57,280 nt of DNA from Escherichia phage KS_W4: sequence record PP627281.1. One strand, 5' to 3'. This document shows, in pieces, positions 1-42,244 of this stretch. The translations under genes were made by a program, and so were the position numbers. Numbering within the stretch: position 1 is the stretch's first letter; the number at the start of each line of letters is the position of its first letter. The notes below the pieces were generated by a model, which was not told where the DNA came from, did not search any database, and saw only the letters and a list, made by a program, of their open reading frames with translations.

Positions 1-12
1 AGGGGAGCTTCC

Positions 13-570
13 ATGAACGGGGCAAGTCAAGAGCAATATGATCGTGACTGGACGAACTATATCCAGTATGCAAATAGCTTGTCCGCTGACGAGATGGCAA
101 TACGTGACAAAGTTGTTGCTGAGTATATGTTCGACTACAATTGGACTAACGCTTGCATGAGATGCGGGTTCAATGCTATGTTTGCACAGGAGCTTGGCCA
201 ACGCTTTGCCACGGACTGTTACGTTCGATGGAAGCTCAAGGAGATTGAAAGATCCCGTGTTCAACGTACTTCTGAGCAAGCTAACATTGAAGCAGACCTA
301 GAGCGTCAGCATATCATTGAAGCATTAAAACGTGAAGCTCATTATACAGGACCGGGATCTTCTCAAGCTGCTAGAGTAGCCGCATTGGGCAAGCTTGCAC
401 AAATTTATGATTTGGATGCTCCCAAGAAGGCTAAAATTGATGTTACTAACAGAGGCGGCGTAATGATAGTCCCTGCTGTAGCAAATATTGACGAATGGGA
501 AAAAACTGCATCCGAGTCTCAACAACGACTAGTTAAAGAGACTGAAGATGGAGCTAAACCGACAACCTGA
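13..570 (+). CDS. putative terminase small subunit
   Basis: 185-aa ORF with RBS-like AGGGGAG upstream; directly precedes and overlaps the large terminase gene. Positional call only, no motif verified. Confidence 0.4.
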   Translation: MNGASQEQYDRDWTNYIQYANSLSADEMAIRDKVVAEYMFDYNWTNACMRCGFNAMFAQELGQRFATDCYVRWKLKEIERSRVQRTSEQANIEADLERQHIIEALKREAHYTGPGSSQAARVAALGKLAQIYDLDAPKKAKIDVTNRGGVMIVPAVANIDEWEKTASESQQRLVKETEDGAKPTT

Positions 571-14757: not shown

Positions 14758-15166
14758 GTTGCCAGGCTGGCAGACACGTTTATTAACCACAGTAAAGGAG
14801 TTGTCATCGACTCCTTTTTCTTGGGGTGAAAATGATTGCTGTACCTTTGCTGCTAAATGTGTTGATGCTCAATACGGTACAAATATCTACGAACAAGTCG
14901 CTGGAAAATATAGTACAGAGCTTGGAAGTAAAAAGTTCACTATTGAAAGAGTTGGAACCGCTTACCTTCCATTGTTATTGGATACTTACCTCAGCGAACG
15001 CGTTGACAAGAACTATGCGCAAAGAGGCGATGTGGTTACATTTGAGGGAGCATTGGGCTTAACTGCTGGCATATTATGGACTGGATATGTATGGGCTATG
15101 GGTCCGAACGGTGTGGAAACATTCCCGCTTAATAAGATCAAAATTACGGATATTTGGAGGGTCTAA
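14732..15166 (+). CDS. tail assembly protein (gpK-like, cysteine peptidase-type motif)
   Basis: GGGGGAG RBS before ATG at 14732; contains GENDCCTFAAKC motif; sits before the tip protein gene. Confidence 0.45.
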   Translation: MRQGSPMSKLPGWQTRLLTTVKELSSTPFSWGENDCCTFAAKCVDAQYGTNIYEQVAGKYSTELGSKKFTIERVGTAYLPLLLDTYLSERVDKNYAQRGDVVTFEGALGLTAGILWTGYVWAMGPNGVETFPLNKIKITDIWRV

Positions 15167-18100
15167 TGCCACCAGCAATAATTGGAGCAGCGATAGCTTT
15201 AGGTGCGTCGGCTGCTGCTGCGGCTAGTATTATTTCGGCTACTACCGCTCTCGTTATCGGTATTGCTGCAACCGCGGCAGGTGCTCTTTTGACTAAGACA
15301 CCAAATATGAACTTTGATGCTTACAAGGGGCAGCAAGAGCGTAAACAGGTTCTGCGTGCGGCTACAGCGTCACGTTCTGTTGTATATGGCACGACCGTAG
15401 CGTCCGGACTATTAGCATTTGCGGAGGAAGAAGCTGGAGATCAAGATGAAGGTGAATGGATGCATCTTGTTGTTGTTCTTGCTAGTCATAAATTGGAAGG
15501 TATTGAAACGATTTGGTTGGGTGATGACGGAATTGATTGGTTTGGTGAAAACGCTACTTGGGAGTTTCATAACGACCGTCAGACTGTTGACCCATTCATG
15601 TTAAGACATTGTCCTTCCTGGAAGGAGGATATGATTGGCAAGGGTATTGCATGGCTACGTTTAAGCTTAAAGTTTGATGCTGAAAAATTCCCATCTGGTT
15701 TGCCAAACGTCAAGGTGTTGAAAAAGGGACGTAGAGTCTATGACCCACGTTCCGGTCAAACTGTCTTTAGCGATAACGCTGCTCTTGTTATTCTTGATTA
15801 TTTCCGCACGTATTTAAAGCGCAAGGACGAGAATATTAACTGGGACCAATTCAAGGAAGCTGCTAACATCTGCGATGAGTTTGTTACTAACGCAGATAAC
15901 ACTACGGAAAGACGCTACCGCATTAACGGTGAGTTTGAAGTGGATGAAGCACCTGCCAAAATCCTTGATGCTATGCTTGAAGCTTGCGGTGGGGAACTAA
16001 CCTATATTGGCGGCAAGCATGGTCTGTTAGTTGGCGCTTATTATGGTCCTGCTACCATGACTTTGGACGAAAGCTGCATTGCTGGGGATATTAAAATTAT
16101 CCCTGAAACATCTTATAAAGAGCGCACCAATACCATTACAGGTACATTCGTTGACCCGAAGCAAACATACGCTGAAGCAGATTTTCCTCCAGTTGTGGTT
16201 AAGGAATGGGTGGAAAAAGATGGCGGCGAAATAACGCAGGACATGGATTTCCGCTTTGTTACAAGTGAATATCAAGCTCAACGTCTTGCTAATATTATTT
16301 TACGTCGTAAGCGTGTTGGTCGAACAATTGAAGTGCCGTGTAACATGAAGGGGTATAAATTCCGCCCGGGCATGTATGTCAACGTGACAATTTCAAATAT
16401 TGGAATGAAAAATGTTGAGATGCGCGTTACTAAATGGTCATTCGATCCTAAAGGTGGAATTAATCTTGTCCTTCGTCAAGACTTCCTGGAAATGTGGGAC
16501 GATGCTATTGGTAAACCAATGGAGCGTCCGGATCTGGTAGACCTTCCGTCTGGTGCTATTGCTCAACCGCAAAACCTTCAGTATCAGGTATTGCAGATCA
16601 GCGATGTTGTGCAAGGTGTTTTAACATGGAGCAATATTGGACAGGTAGCGTATAACCGCGTAGCCGTGCGACAGGGAGGTACAACGGTTTGGACTGCACA
16701 AGTCCCTGGCCAAAACGTTCGCGTTACTGGGTTGCTGCGTGGCGCGTATACAGCGCATGTTCAAGCGGTAGCTTATAGCGGGACAATATCACCGGAAGCG
16801 TATCTTGAATTTAATATTCAAGCGCCGCCTCCGCCAACGTCTATTGAAGTGCAACAGGGTTACTTTGCTATAAGTCTAATCCCTAAATCCGCAGATATTG
16901 CAAACGTTAGCACGCAGTATGATTTTTGGACCTCTGGTGAAACAAGATTGTCTTCCGTGTCTACGGATATTGTGGAACGCGAAGCAACTCGTAAAGGTAT
17001 GGGTACAACATGGACTTCAGAAGGTTTGAAGAATGACCACACTTATTACTGGTATGTTCGCACTATCAACGCTTTTGGATCGTCTGCATTTGTAGAGGTT
17101 GCTGCATTGTGCTTCACAACAGCTACAGACTTAATGCCACAGATTGATTCTGAGTTCAAGAAGACGGAGACTTATAAAGAGCTTACTGCTGAAATTACAG
17201 GTGTTAAAGACGGTGTTACCCAACTCAGCCAAACTGTAGTAGATACAGAAAAGCGTTTAAGCCAAAGTGTTAGCAACATTCAGCAGAGCGTTATTACTTT
17301 GGACGGTGTTGTTCAGGATCAAGGTGTTACTATCAATGAACAAGGACAACTTATTGATGCACAGGGCCGATTGATTGATACGCAAGGTAAAACTATTCAG
17401 CAAGTTAGCGCGACTGTACAGGAGACAAGTAAAGCAGTCGTAGATCTGGAAGGTAATGTTAACGCGCAATGGGGCGCTAAGGTACAGGTTGACAGTAAAG
17501 GGCAAAAATACGTCGCTGGTATCCAGTTAGGTATGGAAGGGTCCGGTGGAGCTGTCCAGTCTTACTTCATGGTGAGCGCTAACAACTTTGCTATCTATAA
17601 CCCGACAAACAGCGTAGCAGAACTGGCATTTGCTGTTAAGAACGGTCAAGTGTTCATGAAGGCTGCGTTTATTGAAAATGGTACTATCGACAGCGCCAAA
17701 ATTTCAAACCAGATTCAGTCAACTAACTACGCTAACAATAGCGCGGGTTGGATGATTAACAAGAACGGTAGCGCTCAGTTTAACAACGTAACGATAAGAG
17801 GTACTGTATACGCTAGCAACGGGTCTTTTACTGGTACAGTGAACGCAACAAGCGGTAAATTCAAGGGTACTGTGGAAGCCACCAGTTTTGTGGGTGATGT
17901 TGCGAATATGTGTGTCATTGCTGAGTCTGCAATACCAAACACACAAACTACAAGTTCAAGAACCTGGACAAAAACTTTCAAAGACTCATCCGGTTCAACA
18001 TTATCTAAAGACTTTGTGTTGTTATTAAGTTATAGTTTAACTGCATATACATCAAAGCAGTCAAGTCGTATAATTGTGACTGCTAACATAGGTGGAACAT

Positions 18101-18288
18101 CAATAACAAGGAGGATTGAGCGAGCTGCCAATGGACCTGCCATGGATGTAACCGTACCTTTAGCAGTGAAAGGAAAGACAGCGTCGAGCGTGACAATAAC
18201 CGTTAAGGAGGAGTATACGAACGTCTATGGGAGCTACTTGCGCCCGTCTGTAATATTAATGACTCGCGGAACTGGTAGTTGGTCGTAA
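15166..18288 (+). CDS. tail tip / host specificity protein (J-like)
   Basis: about 1040 aa; GGAGGG RBS and TAATG coupling; hydrophobic Ala-rich N-terminus, large beta-rich body; followed by terminator. Confidence 0.65.
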   Translation: MPPAIIGAAIALGASAAAAASIISATTALVIGIAATAAGALLTKTPNMNFDAYKGQQERKQVLRAATASRSVVYGTTVASGLLAFAEEEAGDQDEGEWMHLVVVLASHKLEGIETIWLGDDGIDWFGENATWEFHNDRQTVDPFMLRHCPSWKEDMIGKGIAWLRLSLKFDAEKFPSGLPNVKVLKKGRRVYDPRSGQTVFSDNAALVILDYFRTYLKRKDENINWDQFKEAANICDEFVTNADNTTERRYRINGEFEVDEAPAKILDAMLEACGGELTYIGGKHGLLVGAYYGPATMTLDESCIAGDIKIIPETSYKERTNTITGTFVDPKQTYAEADFPPVVVKEWVEKDGGEITQDMDFRFVTSEYQAQRLANIILRRKRVGRTIEVPCNMKGYKFRPGMYVNVTISNIGMKNVEMRVTKWSFDPKGGINLVLRQDFLEMWDDAIGKPMERPDLVDLPSGAIAQPQNLQYQVLQISDVVQGVLTWSNIGQVAYNRVAVRQGGTTVWTAQVPGQNVRVTGLLRGAYTAHVQAVAYSGTISPEAYLEFNIQAPPPPTSIEVQQGYFAISLIPKSADIANVSTQYDFWTSGETRLSSVSTDIVEREATRKGMGTTWTSEGLKNDHTYYWYVRTINAFGSSAFVEVAALCFTTATDLMPQIDSEFKKTETYKELTAEITGVKDGVTQLSQTVVDTEKRLSQSVSNIQQSVITLDGVVQDQGVTINEQGQLIDAQGRLIDTQGKTIQQVSATVQETSKAVVDLEGNVNAQWGAKVQVDSKGQKYVAGIQLGMEGSGGAVQSYFMVSANNFAIYNPTNSVAELAFAVKNGQVFMKAAFIENGTIDSAKISNQIQSTNYANNSAGWMINKNGSAQFNNVTIRGTVYASNGSFTGTVNATSGKFKGTVEATSFVGDVANMCVIAESAIPNTQTTSSRTWTKTFKDSSGSTLSKDFVLLLSYSLTAYTSKQSSRIIVTANIGGTSITRRIERAANGPAMDVTVPLAVKGKTASSVTITVKEEYTNVYGSYLRPSVILMTRGTGSWS

Positions 18289-18295
18289 TAAATAA

Positions 18296-18324
18296 TTAAC
18301 CCCTCAAACGAGGGGTTAATTTTC
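18296..18324. terminator. bidirectional rho-independent terminator
   Basis: TTAACCCCTC-AAAC-GAGGGGTTAA followed by TTTTC; lies between the + tip gene and the - lipoprotein gene. Confidence 0.7.
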
Positions 18325-18556
18325 AATAATCAATTACACAGTTTGAAGGTGAACCAATTCTTCGGTATTCATGATCAATCTCATGGCACCATTGTCCAGT
18401 CATTGGAAGCTTTTCGGTATCATAAATTAAAGAACCGTTACCATCACGGTCTAACGGTTTTGGAATAACGCCGGAATTAGGTTTACCCGTATTTAGACCG
18501 TTACCACATGCAGTGAGGGATAAAGTTAATGCCAGCATAATTAAAGCGCGTTTCAT
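18323..18556 (-). CDS. Cor-like lipoprotein (putative superinfection exclusion)
   Basis: 77-aa ORF with signal peptide and lipobox LTAC-G; opposite strand inside the tail module, as in T1/phi80-type cor genes. Confidence 0.5.
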   Translation of the reverse strand: MKRALIMLALTLSLTACGNGLNTGKPNSGVIPKPLDRDGNGSLIYDTEKLPMTGQWCHEIDHEYRRIGSPSNCVIDY

Positions 18557-21850: not shown

Positions 21851-22127
21851 AACGCTTATGAAAAGCTGACAGGATTGCAAGTGTTACAGCACCCAATCCG
21901 ACGACGGTAGCATAAGTGAGTTGATGTTGAACTTTAACAAAACCGTAATAGGTGCTAGGGATCTCCACAATCCCAAACGCCATAGCAAAGCTGGTTCCAA
22001 GCAGTGCGACAGCAAGGGCGCGTAATAACGCCCTGCTCATTGCTGTGAAACCTTTCTCGTTACTGTCTCCGGTCATTATAACCACAATAATAAGAAACAG
22101 AGCAACAATTACTAGCAAGTATCCCAT
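21849..22127 (-). CDS. hypothetical membrane protein
   Basis: 92-aa hydrophobic ORF (ATG 22127; track begins at TTG 22130). Confidence 0.4.
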   Translation of the reverse strand: MGYLLVIVALFLIIVVIMTGDSNEKGFTAMSRALLRALAVALLGTSFAMAFGIVEIPSTYYGFVKVQHQLTYATVVGLGAVTLAILSAFHKR

Positions 22128-22333
22128 CAACGTCTTCTCCTGTACATGTATTGATCATAAGTAGTCGCAATAATAGTGACTGGCCAGCAAACAAGTATGC
22201 ATAGAAGACTCACAATTTTCTCCCAACGTTTCTTATGAGCTAGCGCATAATCATAATTATTCCAACAAAAGAAATAAGTCATTGCTGCAATCACAGCACC
22301 AATAATGAAATAAATAACTACATATTCATTCAT
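22127..22333 (-). CDS. hypothetical membrane protein
   Basis: 68 aa from ATG 22333 with GGGAG RBS; two hydrophobic segments; C-terminal RRRR. Confidence 0.4.
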   Translation of the reverse strand: MNEYVVIYFIIGAVIAAMTYFFCWNNYDYALAHKKRWEKIVSLLCILVCWPVTIIATTYDQYMYRRRR

Positions 22334-22515
22334 TAAGTAAACTCCCATTCTAAAGTATTACGATAGCTTGATGGTACATAACGCCCAGGACGAGGATCAA
22401 AACTTTTAACGGAAAATTCCAAAGTTCCTGCGCTATATAGTTGTACTTTTTGCCCGTCCCACGGTCCGCCAATTAGCTTAAAAGTCTGTCTGTAACCTTT
22501 TGCTGCTCTAGCCAT
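22333..22515 (-). CDS. hypothetical protein
   Basis: 60 aa from ATG 22515 with AAGGAG RBS; preceded by a terminator-like hairpin ACCCGCG-CGAA-CGCGGGT. Confidence 0.4.
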   Translation of the reverse strand: MARAAKGYRQTFKLIGGPWDGQKVQLYSAGTLEFSVKSFDPRPGRYVPSSYRNTLEWEFT

Positions 22516-22558
22516 ATTCACTCCTTAAAATACCCGCGCGAACGCGGGTATTATTTTA

Positions 22559-22765
22559 TTACGCTTCCGGTGATTCCGGAGTTGGCTCATCTGGAACAAC
22601 AATAACGTCGGCTAAAACTTTCAACGCTTCTTGCTGCTCAGCGGTCATATTATTCCAGTAATAGACGTGAATGTAAACTACTGGTTTATCCCCATGTTGC
22701 CACGGTTCGCGACTTACTACATCCACACCTAAATCACTTGCTACGCTCTTTTCTTTACCAGCCAT
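22559..22765 (-). CDS. hypothetical acidic protein
   Basis: 68-aa ORF with AAAGGGG RBS. Confidence 0.45.
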   Translation of the reverse strand: MAGKEKSVASDLGVDVVSREPWQHGDKPVVYIHVYYWNNMTAEQQEALKVLADVIVVPDEPTPESPEA

Positions 22766-22797
22766 GCTAATATACCCCTTTAAGGTTTTACACGCAG

Positions 22798-23091
22798 CTA
22801 GCCCCCAAAAGTACCCCTATGATCAAGGGTTCTAATGCGCTGCTCCAGCCAACGTGCGTTCTTTTCAAAATGTTTATTGGTACGAGCTGCTTTGCACGCA
22901 TCAATAATACCTAACTCACATCCAAGCTGCGTTTGTCCCATCACGTAAGAATGAGTTAACATGCTGGATACAAGGTCTTCACATTGTAACTTAATAGGAT
23001 GGTCTTGGCATAGTTTCTTTGCTGCATCTTTTAAATCCACAGCTTGGACACCAGGCGCTATCAGCAAAGTTACGAGTAATAAACGTTTCAT
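22798..23091 (-). CDS. hypothetical secreted/periplasmic protein
   Basis: 97-aa ORF with N-terminal signal peptide (MKRLLLVTLLIAPGVQA) and several Cys. Confidence 0.45.
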   Translation of the reverse strand: MKRLLLVTLLIAPGVQAVDLKDAAKKLCQDHPIKLQCEDLVSSMLTHSYVMGQTQLGCELGIIDACKAARTNKHFEKNARWLEQRIRTLDHRGTFGG

Positions 23092-23375
23092 TATGCTTTC
23101 CCTTTACGACATAAGGCTTGAAGTTCAAGAAGCGCATCAATGTCTTCCTGTGGAGTTACACCAACGTGAATTGGATATTTAGCGCGACATTCGTAGCCAA
23201 CGTCAACAGTGTGGTTAATGTAGCCGTAAACACATCCACCAATAACAGTGAAGATAAGCGCAACAATCATTGTAAGGTATTTACCTTGTTTGCGTTCTTC
23301 ATTTTGTTTATTAAGCTGACGGTTAAGTTCCACCGCGTCAATTTTACCTTTATTGTAATCGTCTACTAAGCTCAT
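23091..23375 (-). CDS. hypothetical membrane protein
   Basis: 94 aa from ATG 23375 with GAGGAG RBS; one hydrophobic segment; sits just after the polymerase terminator. Confidence 0.45.
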   Translation of the reverse strand: MSLVDDYNKGKIDAVELNRQLNKQNEERKQGKYLTMIVALIFTVIGGCVYGYINHTVDVGYECRAKYPIHVGVTPQEDIDALLELQALCRKGKA

Positions 23376-23400
23376 TTTGCATCTCCTCTTGTTGTATGCA

Positions 23401-23429
23401 TATATTAAAACAGACCCGCGAAGGGTCTG
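23401..23429 (-). terminator. rho-independent terminator after DNA polymerase gene
   Basis: On the minus strand: CAGACCC-TTCGC-GGGTCTG followed by TTTTAATAT. Confidence 0.6.
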
Positions 23430-23439
23430 CAAGTAGAAT

Positions 23440-25425
23440 TTAGGCATATCCCATGTCTTCGAGATACTTCTCTGCTTTAGCTATATAAGCATCATAATCT
23501 ATGTCGTCCGGTATTTTATCCGGTAGCGTCATGATTGGGACACCTCCCGCGCTACCAGCTACACGGTTGCCCGAGTTAGCATAGATTATTTCGGGAGTTT
23601 CTTCATTGGTGCTTAAATACCAGCGTACAACCTTACCCAAAAATTCGCCATTCCATACCGCGCCACCTTTCACCGCACGTAGGATAATGAATTTTCTAAT
23701 ATCGTTGCAATTGCGTATAGTACGAGAAACAGGCGTACCGTGGGCCAAACATTCACATACAGCTTCCATAATAATTTCACCAGTACAGTTCTTTTGAAGC
23801 CCTGTTTTCGCGAACCAGCCTTTACGTTTAATTTCAACATTTCCTTCCTCATCAGGTTCTTTTACTGCAACATAGTTATTGACGTTAGCACTGTACAGCT
23901 TGTCATAGTAGTTGGATTCCATTTCAAAGCCTGTCACAGACTCCCACCACTTGATCATGTCATCAACGAAGTCCTGCATGTGGTCAGGATACTTAACCAC
24001 AATACCATCCGTGTTAGCTGAAATTACTTTAACACCGTTCAGCTCAAACGCTTCAATGAGCATTAACAGCGATAGCTGTCCGGTGATAGTTACCTGTATC
24101 AATAATTGCGGCGCGTACAATACAGACCACATTGAACCCAATTTACCGAACGATCCGTTGATTACGATCTTCAGCGTATTGGCTGTGTTCTTGTCCCCTG
24201 AGTGCTTGGCCGCAATACGACGGTCTACAATGCTTTTATAAACACGAAGAAACGCTGGTCCCAACTGCTCAGGGTATAAGCCCTGATTAAGAATAATTGA
24301 AGGGTAATAGGACGTTACGTCAATGTCCCGCTTCTTAATACCTGGCTCTTTACCGTGACCAGCACACTCTTCGGAGCTATGCAAACCGCCAATACCCATA
24401 CGGTAGACACCGTCCGCAATCTTGATCTCAAGACCTGTTAACGCTGGAGGCAAGCTAACGCCACCGTTATCGCTAACAACAAAACGGCAGTCCCGAACAA
24501 TATCCAAAACACTATTCATCAGAGGTGTTTGAAAACGAATAAAGTCCGGTATGTTATATGCATACTTAGTTCCAGGATAAACTTGGGGACGCTGGGGGCG
24601 CACACCAGTTAACGCTTGAATTTCGTGTTTAATTACGTCTTCGGCAATCTGCGCATCAGAACGTGAACGCAGATCCACACCGTATTCTTGCGACATAATT
24701 TCACGAAGGTGCAAAGGCTCTTGCAATGCAATAAAACATTCTTCCGTCTGTACAAGGTCGTTAATACAGTACCAGCGTACAATTAACATCTGGTCCTGCG
24801 TCAACATTGTATTTGGCTTAAATGGTAAATCCTGCATACGGCGAGTATGTACACGTCCGCCATATTGTTTCAAACCACCAGATCCAGGCAGAACTTCCAT
24901 AATATCAATGTGGTTAACGTTCTGCATACGCTTAAGGCGGTAACTCTTCAACACATCGGAAGGACGCCAATCTTCCACGATTATCTTATCGGTTGCGTCT
25001 TTAAGCTGCGCATTAGAACAGCCGTTAAGCGCAAGCGTAGCAATGGGCATATCGTACCCGTTACCGTTAAAGCTTACGATAAGGAAGTTTGTCATTACCC
25101 AGTTAAGTAACAAGCAATTTAAACTACAACCGTGATACATTTCGAAGTAGACAACTTTCTTAGTTCGCACTCCGCGAAATGCAATTAAGAAATAGTTTGG
25201 ATAACATTCAATATCGTACACAAGCGGTTCGCGGTTAATCCATGCTTGAATAAGTTCGTCCTGCGTATACAGGTTGTATTGGAAGTTCCGCGCTTCTTCA
25301 AGGTTAGGCAGATAATCCGGGCGCTCCCAAGTGCGCTCCGGCGGTAAACGTTTAACCTTTTCTTTCTTTGCTTTTGGCTCAGGCGGTAAGTCCTGCCAAA
25401 AGAAACCAATAGCATCTGTCCGCAT
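23440..25425 (-). CDS. DNA polymerase, family B
   Basis: 661 aa from ATG 25425; exonuclease motifs YDIECY and FNGNGYD; polymerase motifs DVTSYYPSII (A), KIVINGSFGK (B), NTDG (C). Confidence 0.8.
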   Translation of the reverse strand: MRTDAIGFFWQDLPPEPKAKKEKVKRLPPERTWERPDYLPNLEEARNFQYNLYTQDELIQAWINREPLVYDIECYPNYFLIAFRGVRTKKVVYFEMYHGCSLNCLLLNWVMTNFLIVSFNGNGYDMPIATLALNGCSNAQLKDATDKIIVEDWRPSDVLKSYRLKRMQNVNHIDIMEVLPGSGGLKQYGGRVHTRRMQDLPFKPNTMLTQDQMLIVRWYCINDLVQTEECFIALQEPLHLREIMSQEYGVDLRSRSDAQIAEDVIKHEIQALTGVRPQRPQVYPGTKYAYNIPDFIRFQTPLMNSVLDIVRDCRFVVSDNGGVSLPPALTGLEIKIADGVYRMGIGGLHSSEECAGHGKEPGIKKRDIDVTSYYPSIILNQGLYPEQLGPAFLRVYKSIVDRRIAAKHSGDKNTANTLKIVINGSFGKLGSMWSVLYAPQLLIQVTITGQLSLLMLIEAFELNGVKVISANTDGIVVKYPDHMQDFVDDMIKWWESVTGFEMESNYYDKLYSANVNNYVAVKEPDEEGNVEIKRKGWFAKTGLQKNCTGEIIMEAVCECLAHGTPVSRTIRNCNDIRKFIILRAVKGGAVWNGEFLGKVVRWYLSTNEETPEIIYANSGNRVAGSAGGVPIMTLPDKIPDDIDYDAYIAKAEKYLEDMGYA

Positions 25426-35769: not shown

Positions 35770-36674
35770 TCTTTCCCGTAATAGTTAGCTACTTGATAGT
35801 TTTGACAACCAACTTTTTGACCCTGAGTATCTACTGCAACGGAATGGAAATTGCAATACCATGTTCCATCATCTTTTGGCTCAAGAAATTGACATGTGCG
35901 ACAGTTTACCTCCGGCATAGTTTTACGCCAGCACAATGAGGAATGGTCGCACCATTTGCATTCGAAGAAGGTAGAGTCTTTGAATGCACGGTCAGGAATA
36001 TCCGTAGCAATAGCAATCTGCACACCACGATCAATATACATGTCCGCAGTGACCGGATCAAACGGAATAATTTCTGCGTAAACTTCATCATCGTTCTTGT
36101 TTACCGCAAGATATAACGCTGCGCCAAGTCCAAGCTTGCGCATGTACACGTTCATCTGTACATAGTGCTCAGGTTTAGCTTCTTTGACACCTTTAGCTTT
36201 CAGCTTCTTGAACGACTTATCGTTGTGAGTCTTCATTTCAGTAAGCACGGGCATTCCAGGCTGAACGTCCGGACAACCTATAACCACACCATCGCAGGAA
36301 CCGCCAAAGTGTCCGCCAGCTTCGCTGATACGGAACTGGTGTCCGTTTTCATCCTGCTGGTACACCTGCATACCTGCCGCAAGAAGCATAGCAATGAAAC
36401 GCGCTTCTTCCAGATGCCCGCGGTTAAATAAGCGGAGCTGGCGTCCATCAAACTCTTTACGCGTAGCCCAGCGATACCCGTAGAACAGCTTGCGAGCACA
36501 TTGTTGTCCAATAAGGGAAGCACCTAAGTGACTGCGGTTGCCGCTTTCGGGGCGATATGCGTCTTCAATTGTGGGAATGACTACGCCAAGATACTTACGG
36601 TAAGTCCCACCCTGATCTTTTTGCACACCGTCATTGATTGCTTGAAGTGTTTTTTCTGCAATATAAATAGCCAT
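35766..36674 (-). CDS. PD-(D/E)xK-type exonuclease (putative recombination nuclease)
   Basis: 302 aa; D...E.K-like arrangement (GSCDGVV, LTEMKTH) and C-terminal Cys cluster. Confidence 0.45.
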   Translation of the reverse strand: MAIYIAEKTLQAINDGVQKDQGGTYRKYLGVVIPTIEDAYRPESGNRSHLGASLIGQQCARKLFYGYRWATRKEFDGRQLRLFNRGHLEEARFIAMLLAAGMQVYQQDENGHQFRISEAGGHFGGSCDGVVIGCPDVQPGMPVLTEMKTHNDKSFKKLKAKGVKEAKPEHYVQMNVYMRKLGLGAALYLAVNKNDDEVYAEIIPFDPVTADMYIDRGVQIAIATDIPDRAFKDSTFFECKWCDHSSLCWRKTMPEVNCRTCQFLEPKDDGTWYCNFHSVAVDTQGQKVGCQNYQVANYYGKD

Positions 36675-36685
36675 TGGAGTACCTT

Positions 36686-36713
36686 AGAAAAATAAGCCGT
36701 CTTTCGACGGCTT
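36686..36713 (-). terminator. rho-independent terminator
   Basis: AAGCCGTC-GAAA-GACGGCTT followed by ATTTTTCT on the minus strand. Confidence 0.6.
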
Positions 36714-36739
36714 AGGGACACTACAGAGGGAGGATTAAC

Positions 36740-37609
36740 TTACTGCTGCCACGGCGGGACGGCTGCTTGTGCCGGATGCGGTTCAGCTTGCTGCTGTGGC
36801 TGCGCTTGCTGCTGCGGTGCCGCTGCCTGACCCGGCTGCGCTAACTGCTGCGCCCACGGTTGCTGAGCTGCTTCCGGTGCTACTGGCTGTTGTACCGGAG
36901 CTTGCTGAACTGGCTGCTGTGGCGCTGCGTTTTGAGCAGGGTTATCCCACGGCTGCGGTGCGGCATTCTGCCACGGTTGAGCTGCTGCGCCCTGCTGCGG
37001 TGCTGGTTGCTGAACAGTCTGCTGTTGCTGTACCGGAGCTTGCTGCTGTACAGGTGCTTGCTGTTGCTGAGCAAACGGGTTAGCTGCTGGCTGCTGCGGT
37101 GCTGCGCCCGGGAATGCTGGCTGCTGTGCTGGCGCACCTGCACCGAACGGGTTAGCTACTGCTGGAGCGCCCATTGATGGAGCCTCTGCTGCTTTTTCTG
37201 CATACTTAACCGGATCGTTAATGTTAGCGTAACCGTTAGGCTCGTTGCTGTCTTCATAACCTTCCTGAGAACGAACTTTCAGACGCAGGTTCAGCGGAAT
37301 GTTATGCAGTTGAGCAGGAGTATCCCAGCGAATTACACCAACTGCATGAGACAGAGCGCCCAGTTGCTCGTAAGCGATACGCACAGTATCTTCGTTGTCA
37401 TTGATGACGTTATAACGAGCAAAGATTTTACGCCCTTTAGCAAAACCGTCAATGATGCTAAACGTTACCTGGATCGCCATACCGCCATTTTTGGTCGGTT
37501 TAAATTCAGATGCTTCAATTACTGCTTTATACCAACCTTTCGGCAATGCGCCGTAAGAAGGTGCTTGATAGCTGCTCGCGTCAAAGTGGAAATTAGTTGG
37601 CATAGTCAT
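36740..37609 (-). CDS. ssDNA-binding/annealing-associated protein with Q/P/A-rich tail (putative)
   Basis: 289 aa; globular N-terminal about 150 aa followed by a low-complexity Gln/Pro/Ala-rich C-terminus; beside a Sak4-like ATPase. Confidence 0.35.
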   Translation of the reverse strand: MTMPTNFHFDASSYQAPSYGALPKGWYKAVIEASEFKPTKNGGMAIQVTFSIIDGFAKGRKIFARYNVINDNEDTVRIAYEQLGALSHAVGVIRWDTPAQLHNIPLNLRLKVRSQEGYEDSNEPNGYANINDPVKYAEKAAEAPSMGAPAVANPFGAGAPAQQPAFPGAAPQQPAANPFAQQQQAPVQQQAPVQQQQTVQQPAPQQGAAAQPWQNAAPQPWDNPAQNAAPQQPVQQAPVQQPVAPEAAQQPWAQQLAQPGQAAAPQQQAQPQQQAEPHPAQAAVPPWQQ

Positions 37610-38402: not shown

Positions 38403-39329
38403 TTAATCTAAAGCCTGATCAGTTTCATCGCGGAAATGCATAAAGTTAGCAAAACGCGGTTTATCTTTAACGCCATGAGGAAAGTGTTTATATGAAATAG
38501 TCCGACCTTTAATCTTGTCAGGGTTATTCCAATAATAAATCTTATCCTCTTGCGTTAATTTACCAGGACTAACGTTGATTGTATTGCCCGTCTTAACGTC
38601 TTTACAAACAAGCGTCCCGATCATACCATTAGGAACTTTATTTTCCTGATGTGAAGATCGTGTAGTCCTTCCCAGCTCGTTAACGGTAGCTTCATTAAGA
38701 TTAGTTTCACCCTCAATAATATCGAGGACAATAGCGTCTTCCTGAATAAAGCGTTTAATACGAAGATATCCACCTTCGCGAACTGTACCGCGCCCATGCT
38801 TATAAGGCTTTTCAGGATCGCGGATAATAATACCTTCATAACCCATATCAAGCCAAATGTTTTCCCAGTAGAGCAGCTCTTGCAAAGACTTAACCACATA
38901 CATTGGCACAACTTGCAGGTCGAGCAATTCGCCTTTAGCGTGCTGTGTGGTTATAAAATCTTTCATCATGTTGTAGCGTGCTTCATAGCCCAGGTCTGCA
39001 ACACTTTCAGCGCACAGATCAAAGATGTGCCATTTCAGGAACGGTTCACCTTCAATTGTGTTTACCGCACTGGTTGTTTTACGGCACAGGTCTGGATCTG
39101 TTTCTACACCTGCTGCGAGTTCACCGTCATAGCCCATGTATTGAGGACCGCTGAAAATCGCGCTTGTATGGCGGTTTTTAAACAGCTTTAAGCTGCGCCC
39201 TACTATCTGCCCGTCCGGATTTAAACCGCGCACACCGTCGATTTTAGGCAGTATGCAGCACGGAAACTTAATCTTTTCTTCAACAGCGTCAGTCGCTAAA
39301 TGTGGTTTGAATGCCATTGTTAACCTCAT
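38403..39329 (-). CDS. ATP-dependent DNA ligase
   Basis: about 305 aa; nucleotidyltransferase motif I KIDGVR (KxDG); alternative ATG at 39317. Confidence 0.7.
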   Translation of the reverse strand: MRLTMAFKPHLATDAVEEKIKFPCCILPKIDGVRGLNPDGQIVGRSLKLFKNRHTSAIFSGPQYMGYDGELAAGVETDPDLCRKTTSAVNTIEGEPFLKWHIFDLCAESVADLGYEARYNMMKDFITTQHAKGELLDLQVVPMYVVKSLQELLYWENIWLDMGYEGIIIRDPEKPYKHGRGTVREGGYLRIKRFIQEDAIVLDIIEGETNLNEATVNELGRTTRSSHQENKVPNGMIGTLVCKDVKTGNTINVSPGKLTQEDKIYYWNNPDKIKGRTISYKHFPHGVKDKPRFANFMHFRDETDQALD

Positions 39330-39949
39330 TCATAATAATCATGTTGATGGGAACTGCTGCGTATACCGCAACGTTCTAAAAGTATTGCAGCTTTTTGAGC
39401 TTTCTCTTTCATACGAGTATTACGGCGTAAATGTCCGCTACCCTTTTTAGGTCTGTTTTCCTTTTTCTTTGCTTCGGAAATAAGCTCTTTGCATTCCTGC
39501 AAACGGATCTTGCTTCTTTCCAATCGCATAGCAGAACGCGCACGTTCATCACAAAATCTTTGAGCTTTGCTACGCTGGTCCTGATTACTTGTATGACCTT
39601 TAACGTGGCGAAACTCAATAGTAAGGTTATATTTACGAAGTTGATCGTTCAACCATTTGAAAGCTGTACCTTCCTGTTCGCTTTTCCAGCTTGCCTCTTT
39701 ATACACTTTAATAGCTGTTGAACAATCTGTTTGCACAATTAAATGATCACCCGATTGAATTAAATTAGCTTTCAATCCTTCCCAAATGACATTACAAATT
39801 GCCATCGTTTCAGCGGCATTGTTATCCGGAGCACCTCGTAATGGGCCACCATTAGCATTATTTCCACGGTTACAGACTACCCATCCACCATATCCCGCGG
39901 CTTTTGTATTTGGGCAAAAACTTGCATCAGAAATAATTGTTACTCTCAT
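39326..39949 (-). CDS. RNase H-like protein
   Basis: 207 aa; acidic residue pattern (IISDAS ... AETMAI ... QTDCS ... KGHTSN) resembling RNase HI; basic C-terminal tail. Confidence 0.5.
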   Translation of the reverse strand: MRVTIISDASFCPNTKAAGYGGWVVCNRGNNANGGPLRGAPDNNAAETMAICNVIWEGLKANLIQSGDHLIVQTDCSTAIKVYKEASWKSEQEGTAFKWLNDQLRKYNLTIEFRHVKGHTSNQDQRSKAQRFCDERARSAMRLERSKIRLQECKELISEAKKKENRPKKGSGHLRRNTRMKEKAQKAAILLERCGIRSSSHQHDYYE

Positions 39950-40235: not shown

Positions 40236-41138
40236 TTACAGTTTGTCTTTGAACTCTTCGATATATTGCTCGATCGGATACTGCTTGCGCTTGAAACGAT
40301 CAAACAAGATTTTAGCAGATTCTACGTCTTCGTCGCTCTCTTTACTTGCGCCCGGTGCCATAAAATCACGCCATGTAAAACCGTTCAGATTATGCATCTT
40401 AGCGATGTGTTTATTGTAACGACTTTCCCAGTCCACACGCGGACCTTCCATCTTGCGTAAACCGCGCCCAAGCACCTGTACATATAAATCTTTCTGACGT
40501 TGTACAGCTTCGCCATTATAAGGTCCGGTTTTAAACTCAACAACACTACCGTTAAGATCTGCACCATCCGCAAAGTTGTGTAGCATAGTTTCAATAACGT
40601 CATTCAATGTTGGAACCGTCACTTTACCCTGGGCAATACCTGCCAAATAACCGACATTTTCTTCACCGTACAACTCGATCAGTTCTTTCTTGGTCGCTTC
40701 TGCTTCTTTATTTGCAGACAGAGCTAACATCTGTTGTTCGAACATGTGTTCCTGTTCCAGGAAGTGGGCATAGCGTTCTTCGTCCACTTTGCACACAATC
40801 CATTTATATTCAACATCCTTGCTGAAGTCCGGATACTGATCCACTTCTACTACTTCCGTAGTAAAGAACTTGCCGTTATATTGAATAACAACAGTATCGT
40901 TGCACACAATCCATTTATATTCAACATCCTTGCTGAAGTCCGGATACTGATCCACTTCTACTACTTCCGTAGTAAAGAACTTGCCGTTATATTGAATAAC
41001 AACAGTATCGCCCGGTTGTAATTCGTCGCTTTCCAGGGCACGGTAGGTATAAAGACGACCACCTGCTTCAAACTTAACTTTGACAGTTACAACACCTTTT
41101 AACAGGGCATGATAAGCTTTCTGAAATTCTTTACGCAT
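40236..41138 (-). CDS. hypothetical protein with internal 37-aa tandem duplication
   Basis: 300 aa; AGAGGAAA RBS; contains two adjacent copies of DTVVIQYNGKFFTTEVVEVDQYPDFSKDVEYKWIVC. Confidence 0.5.
   Translation of the reverse strand: MRKEFQKAYHALLKGVVTVKVKFEAGGRLYTYRALESDELQPGDTVVIQYNGKFFTTEVVEVDQYPDFSKDVEYKWIVCNDTVVIQYNGKFFTTEVVEVDQYPDFSKDVEYKWIVCKVDEERYAHFLEQEHMFEQQMLALSANKEAEATKKELIELYGEENVGYLAGIAQGKVTVPTLNDVIETMLHNFADGADLNGSVVEFKTGPYNGEAVQRQKDLYVQVLGRGLRKMEGPRVDWESRYNKHIAKMHNLNGFTWRDFMAPGASKESDEDVESAKILFDRFKRKQYPIEQYIEEFKDKL
40789..41010. repeat. perfect 111-bp tandem direct repeat (2 copies) inside CDS
   Basis: Copies at 40789-40899 and 40900-41010 are identical by eye; period 111 bp (37 codons), in frame. 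Confidence 0.85.
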
Positions 41139-41179: not shown

Positions 41180-41590
41180 TTAAGCTTTATTTGGAACGAT
41201 TTCCAGTGACGCAGATCCAACTTTAGATTCAACGCACTGGTTGAAGACTGCGGCTTGCTCCGCTGTAAGTTTACGCCAAGCCGCAACTTTCAATACAGGT
41301 TTATTTTCCACAAGCTGATCAACGTTAACACCAACTTTAATCAGATCGCCCAGGATTCCGTTAAGACTTGGAAGATCAATTTTACGATCAATCTTGTGGG
41401 TCATTTTCATAACCCCGCCAGTAATCTCAACTTTATTAGTCCCTTCAGACGGCGCTGGGAAATAGGACTTAATAATCTTATCACGGAGTGCTCGCTCACG
41501 AGCTTGCAGCTTCTGCAATTCCGCTTTAGTTTTATACCACTCAATTACATCTGCTTCTGTTGCTTGTACTGCTTTATCTGCGTCGAACAT
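41180..41590 (-). CDS. hypothetical protein
   Basis: about 136 aa from ATG 41590 with AGAGGA RBS. Confidence 0.4.
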   Translation of the reverse strand: MFDADKAVQATEADVIEWYKTKAELQKLQARERALRDKIIKSYFPAPSEGTNKVEITGGVMKMTHKIDRKIDLPSLNGILGDLIKVGVNVDQLVENKPVLKVAAWRKLTAEQAAVFNQCVESKVGSASLEIVPNKA

Positions 41591-41653
41591 TTTTCTGTCC
41601 TCTGTTGTGTTTCGATGTATGTATAGTAACACATCCATGTGCTTAAGCAAGAC

Positions 41654-42244
41654 TTATTTTTTATCTAAATGACGTGAAGTCATGATCGGATGCGTAGCAG
41701 CTTCTTCCTCTGCTGTAACCACATTGGCAGATGTACCAGTGGACCCAAAGCCATTGGCACCGCGCTCAGTAGTTTTGAGCTCGTCTACTTCTACCAGTTG
41801 CACGCAAGGCACCTTAATAAGCATAGCTTGCGCGACACGGCTACCGTGCTCAACAATGAAGCCTTCTTCATTATCAATGGTAAGCTTAATCTTAACTTCC
41901 CCAGTGTAATCGCTGTCAATAACGCCCACGCAGTTAGCTAGTCGCACGTCATTTTTAAATCCGTGCCCGCTGCGGGAATAGATCATAAGCGCGTAGCCTT
42001 CAGGGATATCAAATGCTAATCCTGTGCGAATAACTTCACTTTCTCTGAAGTACACCTGATTATACCCATCCGCACGTAGATCCGCGTGCAGGTCAAAGCA
42101 AGCTGCCCCGGCAGTAGCGAACGCTGGTAGAATTGCGGTGTCTGTTAAGCGCTTCACACCGACCGGAATTGTGCTTAATGATGCGGCAAATTTTTCAACA
42201 TCAATTGCAAAAGAATTTTTTGTGATATTTAATACGTCAGTCAT
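41654..42244 (-). CDS. dut: dUTP diphosphatase
   Basis: 196 aa; dUTPase motifs AGAACFDL, SRSG, GVIDSDYTGE, RGANGFGSTG. Confidence 0.8.
   Translation of the reverse strand: MTDVLNITKNSFAIDVEKFAASLSTIPVGVKRLTDTAILPAFATAGAACFDLHADLRADGYNQVYFRESEVIRTGLAFDIPEGYALMIYSRSGHGFKNDVRLANCVGVIDSDYTGEVKIKLTIDNEEGFIVEHGSRVAQAMLIKVPCVQLVEVDELKTTERGANGFGSTGTSANVVTAEEEAATHPIMTSRHLDKK

What the first reader, a model, noticed from the sequence alone, without database searches (positions are those of the whole stretch)
40789..41010. Perfect 111-bp in-frame tandem duplication inside a 300-aa hypothetical gene
Positions 40789-40899 and 40900-41010 are identical by eye, duplicating a 37-aa segment (DTVVIQYNGKFFTTEVVEVDQYPDFSKDVEYKWIVC). 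Perfect identity implies a very recent duplication (possible copy-number variation) or an assembly artifact.
Basis: seen in the sequence. Interest (0 to 1): 0.55.

Follow-up and report, generated by a model that had tools for sequence, protein, structure and literature searches.

The report
Assembler k-mer overlap, not duplication
The perfect 111-bp "duplication" is almost certainly not biology: it is the assembler's 111-base end overlap, left in when the circular phage contig was rotated to a new start, so the gene is really an ordinary 263-aa gene.

Summary
Window 40789-40899 and 40900-41010 are identical (111 bp x2, 100%), in frame, inside a minus-strand CDS (40236-41138, 300 aa). The window is the whole GenBank genome of Escherichia phage KS_W4 (Seuratvirus). 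All 33 full-length phage relatives, all 31 homologous protein clusters and two Logan contigs have one copy (263 aa or similar). With one copy removed, the KS_W4 protein is identical to the Greed/slur01 allele.

Four other genomes deposited by the same laboratory each carry exactly one perfect tandem repeat of the same 111-bp length. They lie at four other unrelated sites in two unrelated genera: SHIN8, KS_S4, SM_S22 and KS_S9. Relatives lack each of them too. 111 is the final SPAdes k-mer that Shovill picks by default for 2x150-bp reads, and this laboratory reports that pipeline for phage genomes. The record was rotated to start at terS.

The repeat is therefore the k-length overlap between the two ends of a circular contig, left untrimmed on rotation. 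The true genome is 57,169 bp and the true protein 263 aa. 111 is divisible by 3, so the ORF stays open whatever the site. Not a real feature; low interest, except as a curation alert for five GenBank records.

The parts
40789..40899 (.). Copy 1 of the 111-bp unit. Inferred to be the last 111 nt (or, in reverse orientation, the first 111 nt) of the raw assembler contig.
   Evidence: TRF period 111, 100% identity; exact scan. Absent as a second copy in CSP1/CSP1C (alignment) and in all 33 full-length megablast relatives, which span 786-813 bp (mostly 792) against 903 bp here.
40900..41010 (.). Copy 2 of the 111-bp unit. Inferred to be the other end of the raw contig. One of the two copies should be deleted from the record.
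   Evidence: Identical to 40789-40899.
40899..40900 (.). Artificial junction ...AACAACAGTATCG|TTGCACACAATCC..., where the two ends of the linear contig were pasted together on rotation. No microhomology.
   Evidence: Junction and flanks printed: 0 extra matching bases on either side. On the coding strand it creates the codon AAC (N) in place of AAA (K).
40236..41138 (-). CDS annotated as a 300-aa hypothetical protein (WZL04407.1, QCMSULEJ_CDS0057). The real product is inferred to be 263 aa: PHROG 27666, with an N-terminal small beta-barrel weakly resembling the PriA 3'-DNA-binding or Tudor fold, then a long helix and a helical C-terminal domain. It sits in the replication/recombination module.
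   Evidence: ORF. Identity of the record. PHROG 27666, E 2.7e-208. Sub-threshold Pfam Tudor_4 and PriA_3primeBD matches. The collapsed protein is identical to the Greed/slur01 allele, seen on 27 contigs. AlphaFold model mean pLDDT 59, strands at 16-22, 29-35, 45-50, 53-63 and 76-78, then helix 83-120. Foldseek gives PriA 6dgd_A, prob 0.96 but E 0.55, and a BFVD 'putative primosomal protein', E 1.9e-5.
1..570 (+). Record start: 12 nt carrying the terS ribosome-binding site, then terS (13-570). Shows that the deposited sequence was re-oriented from the raw contig.
   Evidence: Sibling records start exactly at the terS ATG, and their 3' ends run on into the sequence that opens KS_W4. No terminal overlap remains at the record ends.

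Best explanation
The 111-bp tandem repeat is a genome-finishing artefact. Reads from a phage whose DNA behaves as circular in assembly (permuted or concatemer-derived) form a cycle in the de Bruijn graph. SPAdes, run through Shovill, writes that cycle out as a linear contig whose first and last k bases are the same sequence. With 2x150-bp reads, Shovill's default final k is 111. The submitters then rotated the contig so that the record begins at the small terminase gene, joining the old ends without trimming the overlap. That placed the two copies of the 111-mer side by side at 40899|40900, inside a replication-module gene. Because 111 = 3 x 37, the reading frame stays open, and the annotation pipeline called a plausible 300-aa protein instead of the real 263-aa one. 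The true genome length is 57,169 bp.

Shown: the repeat itself; its absence from every relative; recurrence of the identical length at unrelated sites in sibling records; the rotation; the Shovill k list; the laboratory's use of Shovill in a contemporaneous paper.

Inferred: that KS_W4 itself went through that pipeline, and that the overlap was left untrimmed.
For: (1) Same length, different places, one laboratory. Five of the eight genomes I examined from this laboratory each have exactly one perfect tandem repeat of period 111: KS_W4 40789-41010; SHIN8 PP627280 18051-18272 and KS_S4 PP627282 18120-18341, both in tail gene J but with breakpoints about 70 bp apart; and the Dhillonviruses SM_S22 PP627283 39478-39699 and KS_S9 PP920551 36217-36438. 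KS_A3, KS_A8 and Dru_SM1 have none. Apart from one 42-bp repeat in an SM_S22 tail fibre gene, the scan found no other perfect repeat of period 20-600 in any of the eight.
(2) Relatives are single-copy at the four sites tested. All 33 full-length phage records for the KS_W4 gene (alignment). All 31 protein clusters, 250-267 aa. For the SHIN8 site, 19 records from other laboratories plus KS_A3 and KS_A8 span 390 bp against 501, and KS_S4 is colinear with SHIN8 only because of its own offset repeat. For KS_S4's own site, siblings KS_A3 and KS_A8 have the 3,123-bp J gene and no repeat. All 29 other listed Dhillonviruses for SM_S22. SM_S22 and KS_S9 each lack the other's repeat.
(3) 111 is the expected k. 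Shovill with default parameters on 2x150-bp reads (mean 148 bp) ran SPAdes with k = 31, 51, 71, 91, 111 (PMC6776766). The same laboratory states that phage genomes were sequenced on NovaSeq 150-mer paired-end and assembled with Shovill v1.0.9/1.1.0 under default settings (PMC11074155).
(4) The record was rotated. It starts 12 nt before the terS ATG, and the siblings start at the ATG.
(5) The copies are 100% identical, with no microhomology at the junction.
(6) The 300-aa protein exists only in this one NCBI record. With one copy removed it equals the common allele, found on 27 contigs. Two Logan contigs with an identical neighbouring dUTPase carry the 263-aa gene.
(7) Precedent: Shovill short-read phage assemblies contained internal repeats, such as 79 bp in phage Tokugawa, that Sanger sequencing showed to be artefacts (PMC10438801).
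Against: No reads, assembly graph or methods text for KS_W4 itself were available; the preprint that mentions it has no methods in the held text. The link to Shovill at k = 111 therefore rests on another paper from the same group. Three of the eight genomes lack the repeat, so the pipeline does not always leave it. They may have been trimmed, not closed as a cycle, or assembled differently; PacBio sequencing was run on Dru_SM1, reported for methylation analysis. That SPAdes prints exactly k repeated bases for a cycle comes from my general knowledge of the assembler, not from a tool result. The repeat is in frame and inside a gene, which at first sight suits a tolerated real duplication, although any 111-bp insertion is in frame.
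Confidence: 0.94

Rival explanations
1. A genuine, very recent in-frame tandem duplication in the KS_W4 genome. It would have arisen by replication slippage or illegitimate recombination and would duplicate three beta-strands of the N-terminal barrel of a replication-module protein.
For: The sequence is in the deposited 'complete genome'. It is in frame and leaves an intact ORF. Perfect identity fits a very recent event. Phages do undergo tandem duplications (general knowledge).
Against: Five independent natural duplications in five phages of two genera would not all be exactly 111 bp, perfect, one per genome, and confined to one laboratory's records. No microhomology at the breakpoints. No second isolate or assembly has it. 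The segment is not a domain: it copies strands 3-5 of a five-strand barrel. The two-copy model is less confident than the single-copy one (mean pLDDT 50.5 against 59.1, second copy about 31-42), although both models are weak. In-frame status is automatic for 111 bp.
Confidence: 0.03
2. A technical artefact of fixed length from another step of the same laboratory's pipeline, not the Shovill k = 111 contig overlap. Examples would be a different assembler or k setting, or a circularisation or re-orientation script that adds a fixed overlap.
For: The fixed length and the restriction to one laboratory demand only a constant in the pipeline, not that particular one. KS_W4's own methods were not available.
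Against: 111 matches Shovill's documented default final k for 150-bp reads exactly, and the laboratory reports that tool and that read length for phages. No other common source of a 111-base constant is known to me.
Confidence: 0.03
3. The repeat reflects the physical genome ends: a 111-bp direct terminal repeat that the assembler joined internally.
For: Direct terminal repeats are perfect, and they appear as tandem copies when a linear genome is circularised in silico (general knowledge; direct terminal repeats of 180-183 bp are discussed in PMC10438801).
Against: Physical ends would lie at the same homologous site in close relatives. Here the sites differ: KS_W4 in the PHROG 27666 gene; SHIN8 and KS_S4 in gene J, 70 bp apart; two different sites in the two Dhillonviruses. 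All are inside coding sequence and far from the terminase and packaging region. Relatives from other laboratories show no such repeat.
Confidence: 0.005

Closest known systems
k-mer-length terminal overlap of circular contigs from de Bruijn assemblers (SPAdes, here through Shovill, final k = 111 for 2x150-bp reads)
   Same: The repeat length equals the final k. The copies are perfectly identical. There is exactly one repeat per genome. Its position is arbitrary with respect to genes. The same length appears in every affected genome from the pipeline.
   Different: The overlap normally sits at the two ends of the linear contig, where tools use it to detect circularity and then trim it. Here the contig was rotated to terS without trimming, so the overlap became an internal tandem repeat inside a CDS.
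Internal repeat artefacts in Shovill short-read assemblies of Klebsiella przondoviruses, such as the 79-bp repeat in phage Tokugawa (Elek et al. 2023, PMC10438801)
   Same: Short-read-only Shovill assembly of a phage genome; an internal repeat of tens of bases, outside any true terminal repeat; shown there to be an artefact by Sanger sequencing and hybrid assembly.
   Different: The length differs (79 bp), presumably because the read length and k list differ. In that study the artefact was caught before deposition; here it went into GenBank and into protein databases as WZL04407.1.
Genuine tandem or segmental duplications in phage genomes, such as the homing-endonuclease-driven segmental amplification of anti-defence loci in T6 (PMC13096335; abstract only, seen)
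   Same: Head-to-tail repeated DNA within a phage genome; perfect identity when recent.
   Different: Real events vary in length, are generally selected for gene dosage or function, and are supported by junction reads. Here the length is a pipeline constant, and the repeated unit is a fragment of a domain with no evident dosage logic.
PHROG 27666 / Seuratvirus protein family of 250-267 aa, mostly 263 (Seurat gp53, CAjan gp55)
   Same: After collapsing the repeat, the KS_W4 protein is 100% identical to the Greed/slur01 member. It has the same neighbours: RNase H, a 76-aa ORF, the DUF7173 (Gam-like) protein and dUTPase.
   Different: Only the deposited KS_W4 entry has the extra 37 residues. The family's function is unknown. 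'PriA', 'ASCH' and 'GpW' labels in some records are weak automated names that no above-threshold Pfam hit supports.

Membership tests
Assembler k-mer end-overlap artefact (circular contig rotated without trimming) | The repeat length equals the assembler's final k | tested here: met
   The repeat is exactly 111 bp. Shovill default on 2x150-bp reads gives SPAdes k = 31, 51, 71, 91, 111 (PMC6776766). The laboratory used Shovill default on 150-mer paired-end reads for phages (PMC11074155). That KS_W4 itself was assembled this way is inferred.
Assembler k-mer end-overlap artefact (circular contig rotated without trimming) | Two copies only, 100% identical, one such repeat per genome | tested here: met
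   2.0 copies, 100%. It is the only perfect repeat of period 20-600 in the window, and the affected siblings each have one 111-bp repeat.
Assembler k-mer end-overlap artefact (circular contig rotated without trimming) | The deposited record is re-oriented relative to the raw contig, so the old contig ends are internal | tested here: met
   The record starts 12 nt upstream of the terS ATG. Siblings start at the terS ATG. No overlap remains at the record ends.
Assembler k-mer end-overlap artefact (circular contig rotated without trimming) | The same length recurs at unrelated positions in other genomes from the same pipeline | tested here: met
   SHIN8 18051, KS_S4 18120, SM_S22 39478 and KS_S9 36217, all period 111 and perfect, in two genera and two submission batches.
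Assembler k-mer end-overlap artefact (circular contig rotated without trimming) | Absent from relatives and from independent assemblies | tested here: met
Assembler k-mer end-overlap artefact (circular contig rotated without trimming) | No sequencing read spans the copy1|copy2 junction | not testable with these tools
Natural tandem duplication | Independent events have independent, variable lengths | tested here: not met
   All five events are exactly 111 bp.
Natural tandem duplication | Breakpoints commonly show short microhomology (slippage or illegitimate recombination) | tested here: not met
   0, 2, 0, 1 and 0 extra matching bases at the five repeats, as expected by chance. This feature is typical rather than obligatory.
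Natural tandem duplication | Junction supported by reads, PCR or a second isolate | tested here: inconclusive
   No second isolate or assembly has it. Reads and PCR cannot be tested here.
Direct terminal repeat (physical genome ends) | Located at the same homologous site in close relatives, at the packaging start | tested here: not met
   Five different sites, all inside coding sequence. SHIN8 and KS_S4 differ by 70 bp within one gene.

The most novel reading that the evidence does not exclude
The duplication is real in phage KS_W4, and its length matches the assembler's k only by coincidence. In that case it would be a days-to-weeks-old in-frame partial-domain duplication (three of five strands of a PriA-3'BD/Tudor-like barrel) in a conserved Seuratvirus replication-module protein, perhaps a lab-passage variant.
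Probability: 0.03. Interest if true: 0.3.

Novelty: not a real feature. Interest (0 to 1): 0.06.

Why it matters
As biology it does not matter: the gene is an ordinary 263-aa member of a conserved Seuratvirus family of unknown function.

As data quality it matters somewhat. At least five GenBank 'complete genome' records from one laboratory (KS_W4, SHIN8, KS_S4, SM_S22, KS_S9) are each 111 bp too long. Each carries a protein with a spurious 37-aa insertion. Two of these are in the tail-tip J protein, which is used to infer host range.

111 is a multiple of 3, so this Shovill-specific artefact never breaks a reading frame and passes annotation checks. The wrong proteins have already reached NCBI protein collections (WZL04407.1).

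A simple screen would find more cases in public phage collections: look for perfect two-copy tandem repeats whose period equals a common final k. Shovill's documented 111 is one such value; from my recollection, other assembler defaults include 55, 77, 79, 99, 103 and 127.

Tried and rejected
A whole-word search then found PMC6776766.

(2) Methods for KS_W4 itself: the only paper naming it (bioRxiv 10.1101/2024.04.14.589459) has no methods or assembler in the held text, and the Dhillonvirus paper gives no assembly method either. KS_W4's own accession is not in the phage collection.

(3) Function of the gene: no Pfam hit above threshold, no sequence relative in the PDB, and only weak AlphaFold models, mean pLDDT 59 and 50.5. 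Foldseek against the PDB found nothing at E <= 0.001; the best plausible match is the PriA 3' DNA-binding domain. BFVD hits are mostly uncharacterised phage proteins. I therefore do not assign a function beyond 'replication-module protein with a small N-terminal beta-barrel'.

(4) Direct terminal repeat hypothesis: rejected because the positions differ between close relatives.

(5) Leftover overlap from the laboratory's in-vitro genome synthesis (PCR fragments joined by HiFi assembly): rejected. The affected phages are described as sewage isolates, the length is constant at 111, and it matches the assembler's k.

(6) Search for an independent assembly of KS_W4's own reads through the adjacent dUTPase: found only two 97-99% identical relatives, both single-copy.

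Full report
THE OBSERVATION. The window contains a perfect head-to-tail repeat. Tandem Repeats Finder gives 40789-41010, period 111, 2.0 copies, 100% matches and no indels. My own exact-offset scan of periods 20-600 finds it as the only long perfect tandem repeat in the 57,280 bases. Identity stops exactly at the edges of the 222 bases, with no extra matching base on either side. The repeat lies in a minus-strand ORF, 40236-41138, of 300 aa. It repeats a 37-residue unit whose last residue is N in the first copy (new junction codon AAC) and K in the second.

WHAT THE WINDOW IS. An exact-sequence look-up identifies the 300-aa protein as WZL04407.1 (QCMSULEJ_CDS0057) of Escherichia phage KS_W4, on a contig of 57,280 bp, so the window is the whole deposited genome. 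KS_W4 is a sewage isolate of the genus Seuratvirus (Queuovirinae) from the Kiga laboratory (bioRxiv 10.1101/2024.04.14.589459).

The gene sits in the replication/recombination module: RNase H (39326-39949), a 76-aa ORF, this gene, a DUF7173 protein (41180-41650), then dUTPase (41654-42244). It belongs to PHROG 27666, function unknown.

COMPARISON WITH RELATIVES.
- All 33 phage records that cover the gene span 786-813 bp, mostly 792, against 903 bp here. An alignment with CSP1 and CSP1C shows a clean 111-column gap.
- All 31 homologous protein clusters in a 5.8-billion-protein collection are 250-267 aa long.
- The 300-aa form occurs in one NCBI record only.
- With one copy deleted, the KS_W4 protein is residue-for-residue identical to the allele of phages Greed and slur01, seen on 27 contigs in NCBI, JGI, Logan and ENA.
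- Two Logan assemblies that encode an identical dUTPase (ERR14295341, SRR21034874; 97-99% DNA identity to the window) have the 263-aa gene.

THE DECISIVE TEST. 111 is odd and about the size of an assembler k-mer, so I asked whether the repeat could be the k-length overlap that a de Bruijn assembler leaves at the two ends of a circular contig, made internal by rotating the contig.

Rotation is demonstrable. The record begins 12 nt upstream of the terS start codon, at its ribosome-binding site. The sibling records begin exactly at that ATG and end with the sequence that opens KS_W4.

I then scanned the other genomes from the same laboratory.
- SHIN8 (PP627280) has one perfect period-111 repeat at 18051-18272, in tail gene J (alignment).
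- KS_S4 (PP627282) has one at 18120-18341, in the same gene but with breakpoints about 70 bp away.
- SM_S22 (PP627283), a Dhillonvirus and so an unrelated genus, has one at 39478-39699.
- KS_S9 (PP920551), a Dhillonvirus from a later submission, has one at 36217-36438.
- KS_A3, KS_A8 and Dru_SM1 have none.

For the SHIN8 repeat, 19 records from other laboratories plus KS_A3 and KS_A8 span 390 bp against 501. KS_S4 runs colinear with SHIN8 there only because it carries its own offset repeat. For KS_S4's own site, KS_A3 and KS_A8 have the 3,123-bp J gene and no repeat. For the SM_S22 repeat, all 29 other listed Dhillonviruses are single-copy. SM_S22 and KS_S9 each lack the other's repeat.

So five of eight genomes from one laboratory each carry exactly one perfect tandem repeat of exactly 111 bp, at five different places in two genera. 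At the four sites tested, nobody else's genomes have one. Independent natural duplications would not share a length to the base.

WHY 111. A genome announcement states that Shovill with default parameters, on 2x150-bp reads averaging 148 bp, ran SPAdes with 'k-mer sizes of 31, 51, 71, 91, and 111' (PMC6776766). [quoted passage not shown] The repeat length therefore equals the final k of the laboratory's documented pipeline.

That SPAdes prints a cycle as a linear contig with k bases repeated at both ends is established assembler behaviour that I cite from general knowledge. Elek et al. (PMC10438801) give an experimental precedent: Shovill short-read assemblies of phages contained internal repeats (79 bp in phage Tokugawa) that Sanger sequencing and hybrid assembly showed to be artefacts.

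MECHANISM.
1. Shown or documented: reads assembled at k = 111.
2. Inferred: the KS_W4 genome closed as a cycle and was written out as 57,169 + 111 nt.
3. Shown: the contig was rotated to start at terS.
4. Inferred: the overlap was not trimmed, so the two end copies were joined at 40899|40900.
5. Shown: because 111 = 3 x 37, the ORF stays open, and the annotator called a 300-aa protein.

The in-frame property, which looks like evidence of selection, is arithmetic and holds for all five cases.

THE GENE ITSELF. The single-copy protein has no Pfam hit above threshold. The weak matches are Tudor_4 and PriA_3primeBD over residues about 26-70. A family profile finds no relative in the PDB by sequence.

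An AlphaFold model built on 31 homologues is of low to moderate confidence (mean pLDDT 59). It shows five strands (16-22, 29-35, 45-50, 53-63, 76-78), a long helix (83-120), a poorly predicted middle, and a confident helical C-terminus. Foldseek finds the PriA 3'-DNA-binding domain (6dgd_A, 68 columns, rmsd 3.3, probability 0.96 but E 0.55) and Tudor domains. Among viral models it finds mostly uncharacterised proteins and one 'putative primosomal protein'.

The 37 repeated residues (44-80) cover strands 3-5 only, a fragment of the barrel rather than a domain. The two-copy model is worse (mean pLDDT 50.5; the second copy about 31-42). None of this supports a functional duplication, but the models are too weak to carry much weight.

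RIVALS.
- A real recent duplication remains formally possible, because I cannot see reads. It requires the length to match the pipeline constant by coincidence, in a record set where four other genomes show the same constant. I give it about 3%.
- Another fixed-length pipeline artefact is possible, but nothing else explains the number 111: about 3%.
- A direct terminal repeat is excluded, because the positions differ between near-identical relatives.

VERDICT. As a property of the phage it is almost certainly false. The correct genome is 57,169 bp and the correct protein 263 aa. Biological interest is very low. The practical value is a curation alert for at least five GenBank records, and a simple rule for finding more: a perfect two-copy tandem repeat whose period equals a common assembler k.

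Noticed in passing
L008 (SHIN8, PP627280.1) 18051-18272: Perfect 111-bp tandem repeat inside 'central tail fiber J' (CDS 15154-18387, 3,234 bp against 3,123 bp in KS_A8 and KS_A3; protein WZL04264.1). It is the same artefact as in KS_W4 and inserts 37 spurious residues into a host-range protein.
   Followed up: yes
L010 (KS_S4, PP627282.1) 18120-18341: Perfect 111-bp tandem repeat in the same J gene (WZL04467.1), with breakpoints about 70 bp from SHIN8's. The nearby but non-identical break sites may mark a branch point in the assembly graph, for example within-lysate polymorphism in the receptor-binding region. That idea is speculative and untested.
   Followed up: partly
L014 (SM_S22, PP627283.1) 39478-39699: Perfect 111-bp tandem repeat in a Dhillonvirus from the same GenBank batch, inside the hypothetical CDS 39374-39739 (WZL04598.1). 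All 29 other listed Dhillonviruses are single-copy there.
   Followed up: yes
L015 (KS_S9, PP920551.1) 36217-36438: Perfect 111-bp tandem repeat in a Dhillonvirus from a later submission batch, inside CDS 36112-36741 (XEC67322.1). SM_S22 is single-copy at this site.
   Followed up: yes
L014 39465-39750 and L015 11573-11746: The sequence around SM_S22's repeat also matches a second, distant place in KS_S9 at 94-96% identity. This is a dispersed repeat of about 125-160 bp within Dhillonvirus genomes. SM_S22's inferred contig break lies in it, which fits a cycle being opened at a repeat vertex.
   Followed up: partly
L014 (SM_S22) 22500-22582: A perfect tandem repeat of period 42 (about two copies) inside the tail fibre gene 21933-23549. 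The length is not a k value, so it is probably a natural in-frame repeat.
   Followed up: no
window 41180-41650 (minus strand): The neighbouring 156-aa gene is a DUF7173 protein (E 1.7e-31). By position it is the orthologue of Dru_SM1 'ORF58' (HHpred: Mu Gam-like). The preprint reports that ORF58 counteracts SIR2+HerA and DUF4297+HerA and triggers retron Ec86. The ORF-number mapping is my inference from locus-tag offsets. The duplicated gene's orthologue would be 'ORF57', which the text does not list among the defence-modulating genes.
   Followed up: partly
window 1-57280: Automated names given to this protein family in public records conflict: 'primosomal protein priA' (CSP1C), 'ASCH domain-containing protein' (UniRef, CSP1) and 'Head-to-tail joining protein W' (a TPA metagenome-assembled genome). 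No above-threshold Pfam hit supports any of them.
   Followed up: partly
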